The translations under genes were made by a program, and so were the position numbers. From NCBI GenBank assembly GCA_964016885.1, contig OZ024741.1:98580001-98644000 (forward strand): a DNA stretch of 64,000 nt, written 5' to 3'. Below, piece after piece: positions 760-58,287 of this stretch; position 1 is the stretch's first letter, and every line of letters starts with the position of its first letter. This DNA comes from Eledone cirrhosa. Taxonomy: Eukaryota. Under the pieces are notes generated by a model. The model ran no database searches, was not told the DNA's origin, and saw only the letters and a program-made list of their open reading frames with translations.

Positions 760-959
760 CTGAATATTCTTTACAGGAGAGGGCCATCTCTTCAATGCTG
801 TGCTGAACAGCCATGAGCCCACGCCTCGCTCTTGCATGCTGTTTTACAGATGTGACACACTCGGTGCTCTGGGACAGTCCTGAACGTAACTTCCTCCTTA
901 TGCACTCTCATGTGCCGCTTGAGTCCAGCAGCAGACCTACAGGCTTTGGTGTAAAACTG

Positions 960-1420
960 ACACAAATACTTCGAAGGCCTTTCAAGGAGGACACCACAAT
1001 AATTGGCCCAGACTGCTGATTGCTGTGAGTGCTTAAATGACTAGCAAGCCTGGCACGAGAAAGGATAACTTTTCCGTCTACATCGCCTTTCCTGAGTGCT
1101 CTTTTAAACACCAAATGTTGCATCCTTTTGACTTCAAAATGATCACAACCATTATAAACCAGACTACTCCAATCGGATCTACTCTCTGCCTCTTCTTCCC
1201 AATTCTCATCACTAATACCAAGTTTCTTCAGTTTGCCTTTGACAACATCCCAGAAACGTTGTCAAGTGTAAATGTTGCCACTTAATGTTTAAAATGCACC
1301 TTAGCCAGTTCTGGTGGAATGTTTCCAATGTCTTGTAATGATGTCGGTATGTGGTCCAATTCTCAGAAAGCAGTCAGGACACAGGATTGGTAGACACTTA
1401 TATTAGTGCCAAACGTCCGA
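960..1420 (-). pseudogene. Decayed 3' ORF fragment of an RTE/BovB-like LINE with an internal deletion
   Basis: Manual minus-strand translation gives SENWTTYRHHYKTLETFHQNWLRCILNIKWQ, then RFWDVVKGKLKKLGISDENWEEEAESRSDW...KRALRKG, which resembles the post-RT region of RTE-clade ORFs. Confidence 0.7.
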
Positions 1421-3279: not shown

Positions 3280-3341
3280 TTTTATTATATATATTTCGGA
3301 GGTACTGTGCTGTTTTTTCAGTACGTCCTCATCAGATAAAA
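3280..3341 (-). ncRNA. Type I hammerhead ribozyme (family A1)
   Basis: Minus strand reads TTTTAT CTGATGA GGAcGTACTG-loop-CAGTACcTCC GAAA TATATA TA ATAAAA. Canonical core, stems I and II pair, palindromic stem III. Confidence 0.8.
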
Positions 3342-4826: not shown

Positions 4827-4869
4827 CAATATATTAATAAATGGAAACTATATTTATAAAACCATAATT

Positions 4870-4931
4870 ATTTTATTATATATATTTCAAGGGCAACAAG
4901 GTAATTTTGGTGCGCTTTCATCAGATAAAAT
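4870..4931 (-). ncRNA. Type I hammerhead ribozyme (family A2, inverted copy)
   Basis: Reverse-complement copy of 4948-5010 with minor stem II differences. Confidence 0.7.
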
Positions 4932-4947
4932 ACAAAATATTATATAT

Positions 4948-5010
4948 ATTTTATCTGATGAAAGCGCACCAAAATTACCTTGGTTGCTCTTGAAATATAT
5001 ATAATAAAAT
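4948..5010 (+). ncRNA. Type I hammerhead ribozyme (family A2)
   Basis: ATTTTAT CTGATGA AAGCGCACCA-aaattacct-TGGTTGCTCTT GAAA TATATA TA ATAAAAT. Confidence 0.8.
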
Positions 5011-5141
5011 AATTATGGTTTTATAAATATAGTTTCCATTTATTAATATATTGAATATTTACTCCAGTAACTTATTGAGTGCTTTATATCAGTTATAAAA
5101 CTTTTAAGCTTGTTGAATCCCAACAAATTAAATATAACTTC

Positions 5142-5203
<62 letters not shown>

Positions 5204-15369: not shown

Positions 15370-15412
<43 letters not shown>

Positions 15413-15539
15413 GAATGTATATATAGTGTATTTTTCAATACACTGTATGCTAAATTAAAAGCATTTTGAAGACCTTACGCTATTGTTTTAAAGTAGTGAC
15501 TATGTCACTTACTTGTATTTTCAGGTAACAAGGGGAGAT

Positions 15540-15585
15540 AAGCTGACAGAGCTCTGTTTCGTACTGTTGGTACTTATCAAAACCT
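15540..15585 (-). ncRNA. Type I hammerhead with U3-A8 core (family C)
   Basis: AGGTT TTGATAA GTAC-caaca-GTAC GAAA CAGAGCTCTG TC AGCTT, with a GUC cleavage triplet. Confidence 0.75.
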
Positions 15586-16005
15586 ACCACTCCTCCTGTC
15601 CGCTGAAATTATGAATGTTGGATTCTTATAGAATTCCAGTAATATTCAGGAAGTGATTATACAGAGCGGTTGCAGGTCCAGCAAAAATTGAAAATTACAA
15701 TTAGTGCTCTGAAATAGCGATATATATATATATATGAATGTATATATAGTGTATTTTGCAATACACTGTATGCTTAATTAAAAGCATTTTGAAGACCTTA
15801 CGCTATTGTTTTAAAGTAGTGACTCTTGTCACTTACTACTATTTTCAGCAAACAAGGGGAGATAAGCAGACAGAGCTCTGTTTCGTACTGTTTTTCGTAC
15901 AATGTTTGCTGGACCCGCAACCGCTCTGTATAATCAGTTCCTGATTATTACTGGAATTCTATAAGAATCCAACATTCATAATGTTCAGCGGACATGAGGA
16001 GTACT

Positions 16006-16051
16006 AGGCTTTGATAAGTACCAACAGTACGAAACAGATCTCTGGCAGCTT
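16006..16051 (+). ncRNA. Type I hammerhead with U3-A8 core (family C), cleavage triplet mutated
   Basis: AGGCT TTGATAA GTAC-caaca-GTAC GAAA CAGATCTCTG GC AGCTT. Confidence 0.6.
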
Positions 16052-16859
16052 ATCTCACATTGTTTGCTGAAAATAGAAATAAGTGACATAGTCACTACTT
16101 TAAAACAATTGCGTAAGGTTTTCAAATGCTTTTAATTAAGCATACAGTGTATTGCAAAATACACTATATATACATTCATATATATCGCTATTTCAGAGCA
16201 CCAATTCTAATATATATATATATATATATAAACCTTAGCTGTTGGGTAATGTTTCGAAACATCCTACATCCACCCTGACAATTTTAACTAAGGTTATTCG
16301 TGTCATAGAATTTGCTGCAAGAGGAAGGGTGTGACTATACCTAGTGGGGGGCACCGGACATTGAAGGTGAGAGTAAAGACAGAAACGCATCAAATAATAT
16401 ATTACTCAAAATACCAGACAGACACCAATTGGCGTTTTTTTATTATCATCATCATCATCATTATCATCATCATCATCATTCAATTGCCTTAGTTATTTTG
16501 CGTGTTGTCATTGCACTACCGAACGAAGCTCTATGCGTCTTGGGGACGTGCAACATTATTAGTGTTGTTTCTATTGTATTAAATATACTCTACGTGATAT
16601 GCGTATAGTGCCTAGTAGTGCTATTTTCTGTATATTGTATATATTATTAACTCAAGGTCTTTTTGACTGTTTGTGTGTGTATGCGTGTATTTGTACGTGT
16701 CTGTGCGTGTGTTTGTGTGTGTGTCTGTATGTGTGAGCATTTGTGAGCATGTGTGTGTGTCTGTCTGTGCGCGTTGTGTGTGTGCACCTGTATGTCTTAT
16801 AATTCCGAAAGCATTATGAATAGAGTGTATTGTTTCCCTCGCCCTCATTCAGTGTATAT

Positions 16860-33763: not shown

Positions 33764-33805
<42 letters not shown>

Positions 33806-33809
33806 TTAT

Positions 33810-34203
33810 TATTTCTACTTTTGGCACAAGGCCAGCAATTATCGCAGTGCATTACTGGTACTTTATTTCATCGACCCCGTAAGGATGAAAGGCAAAGTTA
33901 ACTTCGGCGGGATTTGAACTCAGACCATAAAGGGCCGTAACTATTTGCGTCAAAGCATTGCGTCCGACCCTCTACTGATACTGCCAATCCACCGCCCTTA
34001 ATAATAAAAATAATAATTGTTTCTACTTTTGGCACAAGGCCAGCGATTACCAGTATATTACTGGTACTTTATTTTATCGACCCCCGTAAGGATGAAAGGC
34101 AAAGTTAACCTCGGCGGGATTTGAACTCAGAACGTAAAGGGACGTATCTATACTGGAAAGCATGGCATCCAACCCGCCACCGATACTGCCAATTCACCGC
34201 CCT
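33810..34203 (-). mobile_element. Two tandem S1 SINEs (33810-34000, 34016-34203)
   Basis: Reverse-complement matches to the S1 body and boxes. Confidence 0.85.
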
Positions 34204-34352
34204 AATAATAATAATAATAATGATACTATTTATAGTTATGTATATACTAAAAACAACTATAAACATTGATAATGTTCCGATGATTCAAACGTAAGTTTGG
34301 AAGAAACGATTGTCAGCAATTAAATAATTTGAACATAACTTTGACAAATGTG

Positions 34353-47230: not shown

Positions 47231-47400
47231 ATAGATAGGTAAATATACACGGGTGTGTATGATTGTGTATAGAAGATTATATTAATAAGAGGAATTCCAA
47301 CTTTGTCTGATTTACTCGTTTTATTTACAATCCTTTAAAATATATATAATGGTATTATAATGAAATAGTATGATAGAATATTAAATTCTAAGTGTTAATT

Positions 47401-47437
47401 GAACAAGTACTTTCATGCTTTCGCAATCTTCAGGTTC
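47401..47437 (-). ncRNA. Minimal type I hammerhead in the PLE terminal region (inverted arm)
   Basis: Reverse complement of 50077-50113. Confidence 0.8.
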
Positions 47438-47816
47438 ATGATATGTGGTGACAGTCGAGTTTGCAATTTTCAACTGTAATGAGATGGGTAAATTTCCTAC
47501 CTTTTATACATTTTATACAGAGAAAAGTGGCTCCAGAATGCAAAGCCCTGTAAACTGTATTTCGACCAATCAGTATGTAGTTTCACTGAATTACTACAGC
47601 TGATTGGTTTAAGCGTCACGGCTGGTTGAGCATGCTAACGACCAATAGTCATATCCAACGTATCAATTGTTTTGCTTTTTTGAAATGATGAAAATAGCAT
47701 TTTCTATTAATCATCACCATCAACATCACTTTTATTATTATTATTATTGTTGTTGTTGTTGTTGTTGTTAGTGGTCGTGGTCATAGTGGTAGTAGAAGTA
47801 ATACCTCTAGGCGTTA

Positions 47817-48561
47817 TTATTGTTCATTTAGCTTGGGTTTGAATTTATCAATAAAATTCTTTTCTTTGATTTTTCTCTTGATTTCACTTGGGCTGTGTAA
47901 TTTGTAGAATGGGAATATTATAAATATTCCCTGACCACATGTTGCCAGGTGGCCGCTTAGGGGTATCTGACGGACATTTGGGTCTCTGATTTGTTGACGG
48001 TGTACCCGTGCACGTTCCGATAGTGCATTTCCAGTTTGACCGACATATAGTTCTTCACAATTCGGGCATTTAATGCAGTAAATTAGATTTCTGCTTTTGC
48101 AGTTCATATTTGCATTTGTGAATATTTTTCCAGTTTTTGTTTTCATATATTGACCGGCGTGTATGGATTGACATGTGCCGCATCGATTATCATTGCATTT
48201 AGATACAGTGAATGATTGGTCTTTGTTGTTAAGGTCAAACTTTGCTTTTGTTAGCAATTGCTTCAAATTTTTTGGCTGTCTTTTACTAAGAGTCAAAGAT
48301 CGATCTGTGATTAAGCCTTTTAATTCATTACTTTGAGCAATGATCGGTAGGTTTGCTTTGGCAGTGTTGAAGATATTCTGGTGACATGGGTTGTGTGTCA
48401 TTATAAATGGTATGACCAGTTCTTGGTTTCTTCTTCTTTGGGTTGTTCTAAGTTGTTGTATAGGTATTTTTATAGCCCGCTGTATGCCATTTTCTATAAG
48501 TAGAGATGGGTATTTTTGTTTGAGCAAAAATTCTCTTAGTTCTGTTAGGCGTTTGTACCTG
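47817..48561 (-). pseudogene. Inverted truncated copy of the PLE ORF C-terminus (linker plus GIY-YIG)
   Basis: Its translation matches the C-terminal part of 48564-49700. Confidence 0.9.
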
Positions 48562-48563
48562 TA

Positions 48564-49700
48564 ATGGGATACTTAGAACAACAACTCTACCAAGAAATAG
48601 AGGAAAAATATAGTACTGACTTTAGAAAGTACATTGAAAAATCTTGGAAGAGATACCTTGACGACTGTTTCATCATCTGGACAGAATCTCTAGATACTCT
48701 GGATGAGTTCAATATCCTCCTGAATAACCTACACCCATCTCTCCAATTCACAAAAGAGATGAGTAGGACCAAATTACCATTCCTAGATATAATGATAATC
48801 AAAAACGACACCACCATTACCACGGATATATATTATAAACACACAGACACCCATCAATATCTGAATTTTAAGTCGTGCCATCCACCTCATACAAAACGCA
48901 ACATCCCATACTGCCTAGCCAGAAGAATTTGTACCATTGTAGAAGATACGAATACCAGGTACAAACGCCTAACAGAACTAAGAGAATTTTTGCTCAAACA
49001 AAAATACCCATCTCTACTTATAGAAAATGGCATACAGCGGGCTATAAAAATACCTATACAACAACTTAGAACAACCCAAAGAAGAAGAAACCAAGAACTG
49101 GTCATACCATTTATAATGACACACAACCCATGTCACCAGAATATCTTCAACACTGCCAAAGCAAACCTACCGATCATTGCTCAAAGTAATGAATTAAAAG
49201 GCTTAATCACAGATCGATCTTTGACTCTTAGTAAAAGACAGCCAAAAAATTTGAAGCAATTGCTAACAAAAGCAAAGTTTGACCTTAACAACAAAGACCA
49301 ATCATTCACTGTATCTAAATGCAATGATAATCGATGCGGCACATGTCAATCCATACACGCCGGTCAATATATGAAAACAAAAACTGGAAAAATATTCACA
49401 AATGCAAATATGAACTGCAAAAGCAGAAATCTAATTTACTGCATTAAATGTCCGAATTGTGAAGAACTATATGTCGGTCAAACTGGAAATGCACTATCGG
49501 AACGTGCACGGGTACACCGTCAACAAATCAGAGACCCAAATGTCCGTCAGATACCCCTAAGCGGCCACCTGGCAACATGTGGTCAGGGAATATTTATAAT
49601 ATTCCCATTCTACAAATTACACAGCCCAAGTGAAATCAAGAGAAAAATCAAAGAAAAGAATTTTATTGATAAATTCAAACCCAAGCTAAATGAACAATAA
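48564..49700 (+). CDS. PLE polyprotein C-terminal part (RT YLDD and thumb, Cys-rich linker, GIY-YIG endonuclease); 5'-truncated, so the Met is probably not the native start
   Basis: WKRYLDDCF, LPFLD, YYKHTDTHQYLNFKSCHP, CNDNRCGTC, NLIYCIKCPNCEELYVGQTG and terminal FIDKFKPKLN. The frame is uninterrupted. Confidence 0.92.
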   Translation: MGYLEQQLYQEIEEKYSTDFRKYIEKSWKRYLDDCFIIWTESLDTLDEFNILLNNLHPSLQFTKEMSRTKLPFLDIMIIKNDTTITTDIYYKHTDTHQYLNFKSCHPPHTKRNIPYCLARRICTIVEDTNTRYKRLTELREFLLKQKYPSLLIENGIQRAIKIPIQQLRTTQRRRNQELVIPFIMTHNPCHQNIFNTAKANLPIIAQSNELKGLITDRSLTLSKRQPKNLKQLLTKAKFDLNNKDQSFTVSKCNDNRCGTCQSIHAGQYMKTKTGKIFTNANMNCKSRNLIYCIKCPNCEELYVGQTGNALSERARVHRQQIRDPNVRQIPLSGHLATCGQGIFIIFPFYKLHSPSEIKRKIKEKNFIDKFKPKLNEQ

Positions 49701-50076
49701 TAACGCCTAGGGGTATTACTTCTACTACCACTATGACCACGACCACTAACAACAACAACAACAACAATAATAATAATAATAAAAGTGATGTTGATGGTGA
49801 TGATTAATAGAAAATGCTATTTTCATCATTTCAAAAAAGCAAAACAATTGATACGTTGGATATGACTATTGGTCGTTAGCATGCTCAACCAGCCGTGACG
49901 CTTAAACCAATCAGCTGTAGTAATTCAGTGAAACTACACACTGATTGGTCGAAATACAGTTTACAGGGCTTTGCATTCTGGAGCCACTTTTCTCTGTATA
50001 AAATGTATAAAAGGTAGGAAATTTACCCATCTCATTACAGTTGAAAATTGCAAACTCGACTGTCACCACATATCAT

Positions 50077-50113
50077 GAACCTGAAGATTGCGAAAGCATG
50101 AAAGTACTTGTTC
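50077..50113 (+). ncRNA. Minimal type I hammerhead in the PLE terminal region
   Basis: GAAC CTGAAGA tTGC-gaaa-GCAt GAAA GTAC TT GTTC, with palindromic GTAC stem III. Confidence 0.82.
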
Positions 50114-50335
50114 AATTAACACTTAGAATTTAATATTCTATCATACTATTTCATTATAATACCATTATATATATTTTAAAGGATTGTAAATAAAACGAGT
50201 AAATCAGACAAAGTTGGAATTCCTCTTATTAATATATATATATATATATGTATATATATATGTATATATATATGGATATATATATGTATATATATATGTA
50301 TATATATATGGATATATATATGTATATATATATGG

Positions 50336-51848: not shown

Positions 51849-51954
51849 CATACAGATTCTTGGACGCATATATACATGCATCAACACATCCGTATATGCA
51901 ATCTATCTATCTGTCTATTTATCTGACCCTGTCTCTCCCTCTCTCCCTCTCTCT

Positions 51955-52016
<62 letters not shown>

Positions 52017-52114
52017 AGAGAGAGGGAGAGACAGGGTCAGATAAATAGACAGATAGATAGATTGCATATACGGATGTGTTGATGCATGTATATATGCGTC
52101 CAAGAATCTGTATG
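51849..52114. repeat. Inverted duplication (~100-bp arms) centred on (TA)n
   Basis: catacagattcttggacgc... pairs with ...gcgtccaagaatctgtatg. Confidence 0.92.
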
Positions 52115-54397: not shown

Positions 54398-56738
54398 ATA
54401 TATATATGTGTGTGTATAGAGTGTGCATGTGCATTTATAGCTACTTTTTTCTTGTTTGAAGTGTACAGGTTGTTGCACAGCAGAAAAGTCTGTGTTCGCT
54501 TATGTGGGTATATGGGTGTGTATGCGGATATAAGGGTGTAATGCATTATTTTCAGAGTATGTGTGTATTTATAGTTATTTTCGTCGTTTGATGTGTACAG
54601 GTTATCAAGCAGCATGGAATTATGAATGGGTCTATGTGTGATAGCATGGGGCTGTGTATGGCTGTTTATGTGCGTGTTTGTTTGTGTATGTAGTTATAAG
54701 AAAGGTGTTACCTTGCATGCCTATTTTTCTTTCCTGCTTTTAATATCAGGTTGTCTGACAATATATATGTGTATGAATGTGTATGTGTACTTATTACTGC
54801 GTCTGTATGTTTATCACTGCATGTGTGATTAAGAATTGAAATGTAATGTTTTTTTTTAGTATGTGTGTGTGAGTATGTATTACTTGTGTGTGCTGTGCGG
54901 GAATATGTGCTGAGTGTACTGTTGTACATGGGCTCAAGCATAGCAAAATAGTTAATCAGTTTGTGTTGCAATCAAGTGGTTCCTAATTTGGAATCTCATG
55001 ATTGTGAATGAAATTAGGTAAATGAAAACTGTGTTGAAACCCATCTGTAAACTGTAACTTTAATTCAAATGACCAGCCTTATCACATACTATGAGGCGCT
55101 GCTGTTAATGGATTATCTTAAGTGTACAAGTGTCTATATGATATTCAGGTCCTTTTAATATAATTGAATTGTTAGGCAGTTCAGTTGATTGAAATCTGGA
55201 ATACTCATTGTTGAAACAGACGGTGAAATCATGTGGCCGAGTGGTTAGGATGTTGCGCTTAAGATCACAATGTCGTGAGTTCGATGCCTTGACCGGATGG
55301 CACGTTGTAGTCTTGAGCAAAACATTTTATTTCACACTACTCTAGTCAACTCCTCTGAAAATGAGTAGTAGCAACGATCTAGCGTCTTGTTTGGAAGAGT
55401 ACATTATATTCTCATTCCCTTAATACCAACGGATCTAGGAAAATTGTTGCAATGAATATTAATACCTCTATCTGTATAACATTTTTAATGAATTTTTAAT
55501 CATAGCAGTTTTGCCTTGTGAGAATTTAAAATAAAAACCAGCAATATATTGAGGCATAGAATGCTACAAGTCTATTTTTCAATCAATAATGCTGTCTTCT
55601 CGACAAATGCAGCCTTTCATTTGAAACTTGAATTGGAATTTGCAGCTCACACTTACACAGATTTAGCTGGTTGCATACGAAGTATCGAGCTCATAACCTT
55701 ATAAATATGAATCGAACAGCCTAAATACTAGACCACTTGCATCTAGTTTAGTGATGACAAAATAAAAATCCATATAGGTTGATGTTATTATGATTGCTGC
55801 TTAGTCATGGCTAGAGTAAACCTATGTTCATTGGCGTTCCTGCCGTAATCAAATTGTGTTTTCATACATTGTCTAACGTCGACTTTCACTTTCTTTTAAA
55901 GGTTTGTGAGATTTTTCAGAGAATATTGTCTACTACTTGTAGCAGACCACTTACAGGCAACCATCTTGCTTGTGTGGTGACGGTGGTGCGAAGGGTGTAA
56001 TAATGCTCAAAATTGTATCGTTGTTGTTTTGCCTCCTAACTCTAGTCAGTGCTGGTCGAACAGACCACGATCATCCCGAATTCTTTTTTGCAGCTATAAG
56101 GCATATTTTCCAGCGTCTGTACTTTGAGGGAGATATTGCTGCTATTTTTATCTGCCAAGTCGAGCAACAACCTAGACGTTCCATCGTTGGCTCGAAAATC
56201 AATATATTGATATGAAATGTACGATGCCAGTCTGAATGTATTAGTGTGTTAATATATGCATATATAAGCAGTGGCATTGTTCCTAATCAAAAGGAATAAA
56301 TATATGCATGAAGGTGATGGTGTTAGTCGAGATGATACACCTAACTAAATGCAATGCAGTATTTCTTTTCTTTCTAATATGAATGGCTGAATGGTGAAAA
56401 CGTTAATCACATGGTGCTACGTTCGATCTTACAGCATGGTACATTGAGAAAAATACCCTTTACTACTGCTTTTGTAATTACCCGGTCCTTGTGAACGAAA
56501 GTATGTAGGTGAGCCTCAGTTGCACTATACTTGCAATTCAATTGTCCAGCCTTGTTGCACACAGTGGTATACTTGGCTACATAAAGTATGTAGTTCCATT
56601 GAGTGTGAAACTACTTTCAGACAGTAGCAGTAGAGCTGTTGACTTGTGATGTTGAGTTCAATTCTTCCCATGGGAGAAGCTACCTCCAAAATTCCACAGT
56701 CCTATCAAATAAGAGTTTTATTTCTCGGTCACCTAGAG

Positions 56739-58287
56739 CAGGGGTCACCAAACTACCGCCCGCGGGCCGGATCAGGCCCGCGACGTCAGTTCATCAGGCC
56801 CGCCGATGGTACTTGCATTTGCGTGATAAAACGGATGGAACAAGAGATATTTCTAATTCAATGTCTTTTTCATTTTCAGATCCCGTTTTCTTCATCCTTT
56901 ATTATTGCTACTAAGAAAAGAAAAGTGAACGCCGAGAAAAGTGAACGCCGCGTTTTCAATGAAGAATGGGGAGTAAAGTACTTCTTTGTGGAAACAAAGG
57001 ACCAGAAAGCTAGTTGCGTGGTATGCAGCGAAAGTGTTGCCGTTTTGAAAGAGTACAATCTTCAGCGTCACTATGAAACAAAACATCTATCAACATATTC
57101 AAAGTTTTCTGGAAAGTTACGCTCTGAGAAATATGAGTCCATGAAACGTGGTTTAGAAACTCAAAGAAATCGCTTTACGAGAAAGTTTGCTGAAAATGAA
57201 TCTGTCACTCGTACAAGTTACAAAATAGTGCATAAGTTGGCAGAGCGAGGAAAACCGTTTACTGATGGCAACTTCATCAAAGAGTGTATGATGGAAGCAA
57301 CAAATGACTTGTGTCCTGAGAAAGCCGATTTGTTTGGAAGTATCAGCCTTTCGGCAAGTTCAGTTGTGCGTAGAACAGAAGAACTTGGAGAGAACATAGT
57401 GCTACAGATACGCGAGAAAGCTAGGAACTTGTTGTGCTGTCATTGTTTGAAGCACAAATGGAAGGAGAAAACTTCTCTCATTTTCACTGTTTCAAAGAGT
57501 TTTGCGCTAAAATTGCTGAAGATGTCAACCTCGATTTTCCTAAAAAGATTATTCGTGACTTGAAGAAGCATTTTTTGGAGAGATTTTCAGATCTCGACAG
57601 AAATGAAAGTGACATTCTTCTGTTCCAGAATCCGTTTGATTGTAATCTTGATGATGTGCCAGTTGAACTACAGTTGGAGCTCATTGATTTGCAAGCAAAT
57701 GACTTGTTGAAAGAGAAGCACAGAGAAGGAAAACTTGTTGAATTTTACCGCTTCTTCCCTGATGTTGAGTTTCCGAAATTGAAGAAATTTGCCGCTGGTA
57801 TGGCATCATTGTTTGGAACAACTTATGTCTGTGAGCAAATATTTTTAAAAATGAAGTCAACACATCGAACGAGATTGACTGATGAACATTTGAAAGCAAT
57901 TCTCTTGATTGAATGCAGCAATTCCAAACCAAACATTGATGATATCTTGAAAGCCAAACGTCAGTTTCACAAATCTCATTAATCTTTTTTGCTGCTTAGT
58001 TTGTAAGATTAGGATATGTGCACACTAGGTCTGATGTAACTATATTTTTGCTAACGCCGCCTTCTTTGATAACGTTTTAGTAAATAAATATGTTGGTTGT
58101 CTTTGCTTTGTGTGCATTGCACGCCACTCACCCATGATTAACATGGAATGCTAAACGTAGTGTTTCGTCTTTTTTCCCAAAGCTTTCGTTCTGGCTTGCA
58201 AGTATTGAACAGAATGATTATGCGGCCCGCGCTCGTCATTCTTTCAGTTATCCGGCCCACTGTGAAAAAAGTTTGGTGACCCCCCTG
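56739..58287 (+). mobile_element. hAT DNA transposon (Charlie/Buster-type), internally deleted
   Basis: TIRs caggggtcaccaaact and agtttggtgacccc..ctg, with a perfect 8-bp TSD acctagag at 56731-56738 and 58288-58295. Confidence 0.95.
56903..57982 (+). pseudogene. hAT transposase remnant (GTF2IRD2/Charlie-like): N-terminus fused out of frame to the C-terminus, catalytic middle missing
   Basis: KRKV..RVFNEEW..KYFF..CVVC..LKEYNLQRHYETKH and KPFTDGNFIKECM, then a frame change near 57437 to LFQNPF..LQLELIDLQ..FGTTYVCEQIF..RTRLTDEHL. Confidence 0.88.

What the first reader, a model, noticed from the sequence alone, without database searches (positions are those of the whole stretch)
15405..16210. 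Family C: 323-bp tandem monomer with a compensated U3-A8 hammerhead
Seen: both full HHR copies read TTGATAA where CTGANGA is expected, flanked by stems I-III and (in the minus copy) a GUC triplet. Established: C3 and G8 form a tertiary Watson-Crick pair in the active HHR, and U3-A8 is a known compensatory variant that CUGANGA-only searches miss. Inference: a retrozyme-like monomer invisible to standard scans.
Basis: partly seen in the sequence, partly recalled or inferred. Interest (0 to 1): 0.75.

Follow-up and report, generated by a model that had tools for sequence, protein, structure and literature searches.

The report
Variant-core hammerhead ribozyme mini-retroelement
This is an aged copy of an abundant, roughly 320-base non-coding jumping element whose self-cutting RNA motif (hammerhead) has a swapped core base pair already known from other organisms, and whose insertion pattern points to Penelope-type retrotransposons as the machinery that moves it.

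Summary
The motif is real. Two copies read UUGAUAA (U3-A8) inside a type I hammerhead, but only the minus-strand copy keeps an intact core; the plus-strand copy has a GGC cleavage triplet. The locus is not a simple tandem. It holds 1.5 units pointing left and one inverted unit pointing right, between (TA)n runs, with a ~30-nt tail on one end only. That is the published Penelope-like element (PLE) insertion pattern, and a coding PLE in the same window shows it too. In two raw-read runs, C3 occurs in only 114 of 608 and 113 of 455 reads, so U3 is the family majority. The unit-to-unit junction recurs in contigs under two species labels. The ribozyme has canonical, retrozyme-type architecture rather than the minimal PLE form. 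Best reading: a non-coding, PLE-mobilised retrozyme-type family, of which this copy is probably unable to release a monomer. U3-A8 itself is published, including about 1,300 Schistosoma PLE motifs, so the novelty is limited to the combination. Folding suggests a testable reason for the swap: C3 would stabilise an inactive hairpin by about 2.6 kcal/mol. Cleavage, expression and any coding parent remain untested.

The parts
15372..15404 (.). Left (TA)n target microsatellite
15405..15727 (-). Copy c1: full 323-bp unit, RNA sense on the minus strand, 3' end pointing left; non-coding (longest stop-free run 46 aa on the doubled unit), GC 34%
15540..15585 (-). Intact type I hammerhead: U3=15580, A8=15575; helix II 15573-15570/15564-15561; GAAA 15560-15557; palindromic helix III 15556-15547; GUC 15547-15545, predicted cut between 15545 and 15544
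15519..15608 (-). Extended helix I: internal loop, then a 19-pair distal helix (15590-15608 with 15537-15519)
   Evidence: read variants
15423..15443 (-). 8-bp hairpin near the 3' end of the unit, stem identical in all three copies; role unknown
15728..15892 (-). Copy c2: 5'-truncated half unit upstream of c1 in RNA sense; starts in loop 2 of the ribozyme, keeps GAAA, helix III and GUC (15871-15869), lacks the UUGAUAA half
15893..15900 (.). Inversion junction; these 8 nt repeat 15881-15888 of the left arm
   Evidence: sequence
15900..16185 (+). Copy c3: inverted, nearly full unit, RNA sense on the plus strand, 3' end pointing right; 92% identical to c1
16006..16051 (+). Damaged hammerhead: U3=16011, A8=16016, but the triplet is GGC (16044-16046) and helix III is no longer palindromic
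16186..16210 (+). Tail: 25 nt (about 31 with the preceding AT repeats) of the next unit's start, present on this arm only
   Evidence: tail definition in PMC8557442 and PMC11167929
16211..16230 (.). Right (TA)n target microsatellite

Best explanation
The locus is one aged insertion of an abundant, non-coding, ~320-nt retrozyme-type family that is copied by Penelope-like element (PLE) proteins supplied in trans. SHOWN: head-to-tail unit with no ORF, U3-A8 type I hammerhead of canonical architecture, inverted 5'-truncated arm, one-sided tail, (TA)n flanks, U3 majority across reads. INFERRED: (1) multimeric transcripts self-cleave after GUC, most favourably as double hammerheads in which the palindromic helix III pairs between neighbouring units; (2) unit-length RNA may be circularised by a host ligase, as published for other retrozymes; (3) a PLE protein cuts both strands of a (TA)n site and reverse-transcribes an RNA template at each end, starting at either of two sites about 30 nt apart, which gives two outward-pointing arms, one more than a unit long and one with the tail; (4) U3-A8 keeps the core pair while weakening a competing hairpin between the helix I 5' strand plus positions 3-5 and the helix III palindrome. 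This copy probably cannot release a monomer by itself, because only c1 has a whole core.
For: Architecture matches the PLE pattern described in PMC8557442 and that of a coding GIY-YIG PLE in the same window, whose arms also point outward and carry a tail on one side. PAc protein cuts and extends both strands and starts at two sites that define the tail (PMC11167929). 6 of 15 joints shown are opposite-strand joints at different positions. The loose end at 15689 continues co-linearly into the unit end in 42 contigs of X1 (agreement 0.71) and 1 contig of X4, so the ORF-less period is not peculiar to this locus. C3 is read in 114 of 608 (X7) and 113 of 455 (X8) reads and in 1 of 2 X4 contigs. Of 10 helix I pairs touched by the read variants entered, 8 are paired with the variant letter. 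Circular fold: -78.1 kcal/mol, z -5.1, 0 of 100 shuffles as stable. Self-dimer MFE is the double hammerhead, -33.3 against 2 x -11.3 for monomers. With C3 the inactive hairpin gains about 2.6 kcal/mol.
Against: Only 1 of 3 copies has an intact core. The predicted monomer fold of c1 is inactive by 3.2 kcal/mol. In the left-arm transcript, helix III pairs between c2 and c1 but helix I is out of register. No sequence similarity to the coding PLE in the window (local scores within the shuffle range in 10 of 10 comparisons), so no helper is identified. The antisense strand folds almost as well (-75.9), so part of the structure may be DNA-level inverted repeat. Most helix repairs only show that c1 has decayed; no two-sided compensation was demonstrated. 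About a fifth to a quarter of reads carry C3, and no row for position 8 was among the 40 of 170 rows shown, so they may be unpaired C3-A8 cores. In PAc, ribozyme cleavage is not needed for insertion in vitro. In the Xenopus preprint 8 of 9 tested retrozyme dimers did not cleave. No long array or circle was seen.
Confidence: 0.62

Rival explanations
1. The unit is the terminal repeat (pLTR) or an internally deleted derivative of an autonomous PLE that carries the same U3-A8 ribozyme. The short copies are 5'-truncated or gutted by-products made from linear transcripts, not from a self-propagating RNA circle.
For: All PLE insertion marks are present. U3-A8 was first seen in animals in a PLE. Dual motifs 100-700 bp apart on opposite strands are described as PLE remnants; here the spacing is 431 bp. 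Depth is higher on the 3' part than on the 5' part of the unit. 437 of 461 loose ends were not shown, so an ORF-bearing continuation could be hidden.
Against: Unit follows unit with no ORF between. The same co-linear junction is in X1 and X4. Raw-read depth 5' of the ribozyme is about equal to depth at the core. The ribozyme lacks the min-HHR traits (extra base after A9, long helix II) typical of metazoan PLEs. No match to 7 family motifs in the PLE consensus files of PMC8557442, apart from one 13-mer inside an unrelated coding stretch.
Confidence: 0.22
2. The family is a PLE-dependent non-autonomous element, but its hammerhead is a vestigial passenger. U3-A8 was fixed by drift in a master copy and cleavage plays no part in its spread.
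For: Ribozyme mutants do not reduce PAc insertion in vitro. Naiad PLEs thrive without hammerheads. A C3 minority of 19-25% may lack G8, and the one X4 contig with C3 also has a change at the helix II closing pair. 2 of 3 local copies are damaged.
Against: A double change that keeps the 3-8 pair is unlikely under drift. Position 3 is the only one of the core positions among the 40 rows shown. Natural U3-A8 ribozymes are reported, and the pair was active in vitro according to PMC3088659.
Confidence: 0.13
3. A plain repeat or foldback satellite whose resemblance to a hammerhead is chance.
For: Rfam has no hammerhead match at E up to 10. The isolated motif does not fold better than shuffles (z -1.33 and -0.12).
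Against: 0 descriptor hits in 60 of 60 shuffled windows. Rfam also misses C3-G8 motifs in the window. Helix I is repaired by majority letters.
Confidence: 0.03

Closest known systems
Non-LTR retrozymes of animals (Cervera & de la Pena 2020, PMC7229834; Li, Clavereau & Pollet 2026, 10.64898/2026.07.22.740005)
   Same: Non-coding 150-450-bp head-to-tail unit, low GC, self-paired, one type I hammerhead per unit with 4-bp helix II and short palindrome-capped helix III; coexists with PLEs. The mussel family is 350-390 bp.
   Different: Core pair is U3-A8. This locus has an inverted arm and a one-sided tail and only one intact ribozyme. Arrays, expression, circles and cleavage are not shown.
U3-A8 minimal hammerheads of Schistosoma mansoni Cercyon-type PLEs (PMC4209133)
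   Same: Same core covariation; one printed example has the same UUGAUAA heptamer; dual motifs on opposite strands 100-700 bp apart.
   Different: Those are min-HHRs with an extra base after A9 and no helix III stem, mostly single motifs. Here there is no extra base, a 3-bp helix III and a long distal helix I, in an ORF-less tandem unit.
Endonuclease-bearing PLE insertions and their non-autonomous derivatives (PMC8557442, e.g. MRC1 of Chlamydomonas; PAc mechanism, PMC11167929)
   Same: Partial tandem, inverted 5'-truncated copy, 30-40-bp tail at one end, (TA)n target.
   Different: No RT or GIY-YIG ORF; no autonomous partner with a shared 3' end identified.
Natural U3-A8 hammerheads (Perreault et al. 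2011, PMC3088659)
   Same: C3-G8 covaries to U3-A8 in several natural ribozymes.
   Different: The section read does not describe a multicopy animal repeat family with this core.

Membership tests
Type I hammerhead ribozyme | Conserved core with a Watson-Crick 3-8 pair, GAAA and an NUH triplet | tested here: met
   c1 only; c3 fails at position 16.1, c2 lacks half the core
Type I hammerhead ribozyme | Helices I, II and III around the core, helix I open-ended | tested here: met
   majority read letters improve helix I
Type I hammerhead ribozyme | Match to the Rfam model | tested here: not met
   C3-G8 motifs in the window are missed as well, so the test has little power here
Type I hammerhead ribozyme | Loop 1-loop 2 tertiary contacts | not tested
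   An internal loop in helix I and a 5-6-nt loop 2 exist; no contact model was tested
Type I hammerhead ribozyme | Self-cleavage | not testable with these tools
   needs an assay
Minimal hammerhead (min-HHR) of metazoan PLEs | Unpaired base between A9 and 10.1, long helix II, little or no helix III | tested here: not met
   no extra base, 4-bp helix II, 3-bp helix III
Non-LTR retrozyme | Head-to-tail unit of 150-450 bp | tested here: met
   323-bp period, 1.5 units here; same junction in X1 and X4
Non-LTR retrozyme | Non-coding, GC below 45-50%, highly self-paired | tested here: met
   longest stop-free run 46 aa; GC 34%; 63% paired, z -5.1
Non-LTR retrozyme | [quoted passage not shown] | tested here: not met
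   one complete ribozyme at this locus; other loci could not be examined
Non-LTR retrozyme | Multi-unit genomic arrays elsewhere in the genome | not testable with these tools
   no genome held; reads were cut at the AT repeat of the junction
Non-LTR retrozyme | Expressed as unit-length linear and circular RNA | not testable with these tools
   no RNA run was available to lay
PLE-type insertion | Partial tandem with 5' truncation plus adjacent inverted 5'-truncated copy | tested here: met
   further opposite-strand joints
PLE-type insertion | 30-40-bp tail at one end; (TA)n target | tested here: met
   25 nt plus AT repeats (about 31) on the right arm only; (TA)n on both sides
Autonomous PLE | RT plus GIY-YIG ORF | tested here: not met
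Autonomous PLE | 3' end shared with a coding parent | tested here: inconclusive
   no similarity to the window's coding PLE; no hits; most loose ends not shown

The most novel reading that the evidence does not exclude
An abundant retrozyme family, shared by at least two species, uses U3-A8 as negative design. Its helix I strand plus a canonical CUG would be identical to half of the helix III palindrome and would lock the RNA in an inactive hairpin, so here the textbook C3-G8 core would cleave worse than the 'variant'. C3 would be tolerated only together with a loop-3 change that breaks the trap, as in the one linked contig seen. The one-sided tail and inverted arm would then be a direct mechanical footprint of PLE proteins copying a ribozyme RNA circle, a link so far argued mainly from co-occurrence and homology.
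Probability: 0.22. Interest if true: 0.62.

Novelty: new variant of a known kind. Interest (0 to 1): 0.4.

Why it matters
Retrozyme surveys that require CUGANGA would miss this whole family, so counts in such genomes may be low. The locus carries PLE insertion marks on an element with no ORF, which bears on the open question of what mobilises animal retrozymes. It also offers a clean bench test of why a natural ribozyme would swap its 3-8 pair. Each ingredient (U3-A8, mollusc retrozymes, non-autonomous PLE derivatives) is already published, which caps the surprise.

Tried and rejected
No whole genome is held, so copies could not be counted. No RNA holder listed. Exact-pattern scans found nothing in metagenome contigs, viral contigs or prokaryote genomes; these collections are not expected to hold an animal repeat. 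Earlier-finding look-ups by sequence and by place were empty. Rfam gave only microRNA-type matches caused by inverted repeats and microsatellites. Read ends and low-agreement loose ends at 15453, 15632 and 15689 in X7 and X8 sit on AATT sites and were rejected as element boundaries; they fit restriction ends and ligation products of the RAD libraries. The deep dip in X1 contig depth over 15581-15606 was not taken as loss of the ribozyme: c1 differs from the majority at many places there, and raw reads dip far less. The repeat finder was swamped by microsatellites. The coding PLE at 47.3-50.2 kb was tested as parent and showed no similarity. The paper on dimer-cleaving PLE hammerhead variants (Lunse et al., recalled) is not held and may bear on novelty. 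Supplements not seen: those of the bioRxiv preprint (closed), file 1 of PMC4209133 (not searched), those of PMC7229834 (not opened) and the PMC13282606 file (listed only).

Full report
OBSERVATION. The window is AT-rich, microsatellite-dense eukaryotic DNA. A SINE-like dimer at 33801-34221 resembles octopus SINEs as I recall them; the host was not established by any search. The finding is a three-part repeat between two (TA)n runs. Copy c1 (15405-15727) is a full unit and c2 (15728-15892) is a half unit in the same orientation. Copy c3 (15900-16210) is inverted. The period is 323 bp and the two GUC sites are 324 nt apart. Identities are c1-c2 149 of 157, c1-c3 143 of 155 and c2-c3 145 of 155 over the shared part. 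No further copy lies in the window.

THE RIBOZYME. On the minus strand c1 reads: helix I strand, UUGAUAA (U3=15580, A8=15575), 4-bp helix II with loop CAACA, GAAA, a 10-nt palindrome, GUC, helix I partner. A strict descriptor finds this once in the window and never in 60 shuffled windows. Copy c3 has the same heptamer but G at position 16.1 and a broken palindrome; from established hammerhead rules (NUH triplet) it should be dead. Copy c2 starts in loop 2 and lacks the first half of the core. There is no extra base after A9, helix III has 3 pairs under a palindromic tetraloop, and helix I continues past an internal loop as a 19-pair distal helix (14 Watson-Crick, 2 G-U, 3 mismatches in c1). 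This fits the canonical metazoan type I form, which PMC4209133 and PMC7229834 contrast with the minimal form of PLEs. Rfam does not detect it and does not detect the C3-G8 motifs at 4924/4955 or 47433 either.

THE FAMILY. 9 runs were listed, none on record as RNA; 4 were laid on 15412-15790 at 82% likeness. 3106 contigs (X1), 35 contigs (X4, another species label), 4499 reads (X7) and 3655 reads (X8) were laid, so the family is multicopy; no copy number can be taken from these data. At position 3 the C allele is read in 114 of 608 (X7) and 113 of 455 (X8) reads, in 8 X1 contigs (about a quarter of the depth there) and in 1 of 2 X4 contigs. The table shows 40 of 170 rows and none for position 8. 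A majority change there would very probably have been shown, so I infer that A8 is the majority; whether the C3 minority has G8 cannot be read. I entered 16 of the 40 rows, one letter per place and no indels, into a pairing table. They touch 10 helix I pairs: 8 are paired with the variant letter, 1 is broken (15585, at the edge of the internal loop) and 1 stays unpaired. Much of this only shows that c1 has decayed from a better-paired majority. The loose end at 15689 runs on, at the same length as c1, into the end of the unit in 42 X1 contigs and 1 X4 contig, so the ORF-less period is a family trait. 6 of 15 joints shown (18 in all) join opposite strands at different places. Limits: copies under 82% alike are excluded, RAD data sample the genome unevenly, and only 24 of 461 loose ends are shown.

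INSERTION PATTERN. In ribozyme sense both arms point outward and meet at truncated 5' ends, with an 8-nt duplication at the junction. The right arm runs about 30 nt further into the next unit than the left arm. PMC8557442 describes this for PLEs: partial tandems, an adjacent inverted 5'-truncated copy, a 30-40-bp tail often at one end only, and microsatellite targets; it also reports non-autonomous head-to-tail derivatives. PMC11167929 shows that a PLE protein cuts and extends both strands of AT-rich DNA and starts at two sites that define the tail. The window offers an internal control. A coding element at about 47300-50230 has a GIY-YIG domain, arms 1266 of 1269 identical, a C3-G8 hammerhead in ORF sense at 47433 and 50081, and an extension on one arm only. 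It shares the architecture but no sequence with the family, so it is a model for a helper, not an identified one.

MECHANISM. Shown by computation only: the unit folds as a circle at -78.1 kcal/mol (z -5.1; 0 of 100 shuffles), with the antisense strand at -75.9. Two c1 ribozymes co-fold into the double hammerhead (-33.3), while a single one prefers a hairpin that buries positions 3-5. This suggests cleavage in multimers and a quiet monomer, the regulation described in PMC4209133. The hairpin arises because the helix I strand plus positions 3-5 can pair with the palindrome. With majority letters in helix I, the hammerhead fold is within 0.4 kcal/mol of that trap for U3-A8 but 3.1 kcal/mol behind for C3-G8; a loop-3 change read in about 30% of reads cuts the gap to 0.6 or less. 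The single X4 contig with C3 also carries that loop-3 change (rows with depth 6.85). This is one contig, the sequences are c1 with a few letters changed, many reads have a shorter helix I than modelled, and tertiary contacts are not in the energy model, so it is a hypothesis. At this locus c1's core could at best act on c2's site, in a poor register, and nothing complements c1's own site, so monomer release is unlikely.

COMPARISON AND NOVELTY. U3-A8 is published for natural hammerheads (PMC3088659) and for about 1,300 S. mansoni minimal motifs (PMC4209133). Mollusc retrozymes of 350-390 bp are published (PMC7229834). A 2026 preprint argues that retrozymes are non-autonomous PLE derivatives. 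Searches for 'U3-A8' and five other spellings returned only those two papers. A search combining hammerhead, retrozyme, Penelope, octopus and cephalopod listed 20 of 63 papers, none on this family by title. So the element works like a non-LTR retrozyme and was inserted like a PLE. It meets the structural features of the retrozyme class, fails the active-copy criterion at this locus, and is untested for expression. What I did not find in print is a canonical-architecture, family-wide U3-A8 ribozyme in a tandem non-coding animal unit. The library lacks most subscription papers.

PAPERS SEEN. 10.64898/2026.07.22.740005: parts 1-3 of 5. PMC4209133: parts 1-2 of 4 and supplement file 2, parts 1-2 of 3. 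PMC11167929: parts 1-2 of 4. PMC7229834: passages and section 14. PMC8557442: passages and supplement searches. PMC3088659: passages and section 8. PMC3884650, PMC5680766, PMC13282606: passages. Others: search listings only.

VERDICT. A real feature and a new variant of a known kind; interest 0.40. Confidence 0.62 for a PLE-mobilised retrozyme-type family, 0.22 for a pLTR or gutted PLE, 0.13 for a vestigial ribozyme and 0.03 for chance.

Noticed in passing
window 47300-50230: Young coding Penelope-like insertion: two outward-pointing arms 1266 of 1269 identical, partial RT plus GIY-YIG with a CX4CxxC linker (Neptune-type by the motif described in PMC8557442), C3-G8 hammerhead at 47433 (-) and 50081 (+), about 40-nt extension on the left arm only, long (TA)n flanks.
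   Followed up: partly
window 4835-5145 and 3280-3340: Another hammerhead family with CUGAUGA core and AUA triplet: an inverted pair at 4924 (-) and 4955 (+) between (TA)n runs and a related copy at 3335 (-). The inverted pair scores above the Rfam threshold for plant MIR171_1, probably a false match caused by the palindrome.
   Followed up: partly
window 33801-34221: Two head-to-tail copies of a 207-bp SINE-like unit next to (TA)n; resembles octopus SINEs as recalled, not tested.
   Followed up: no
window 56643-57982: Two overlapping ORFs of a frameshifted DNA-transposase-like gene; the first has a Spin-doc zinc finger (PF18658).
   Followed up: partly
window 908-1261 (-): 117-aa stretch that reads like the C-terminal end of a LINE ORF; no Pfam hit.
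   Followed up: partly
loose end behind 15581 in X7 and X8: One locus (291 reads in each run) breaks immediately 5' of position 3 of the ribozyme and continues into sequence resembling a Tc1/mariner terminal repeat (recalled).
   Followed up: no
window 51870-52093: Near-perfect palindrome centred on a (TA)n run, with mirrored (TC)/(GA) and other simple repeats; source of the top Rfam microRNA-type scores.
   Followed up: no
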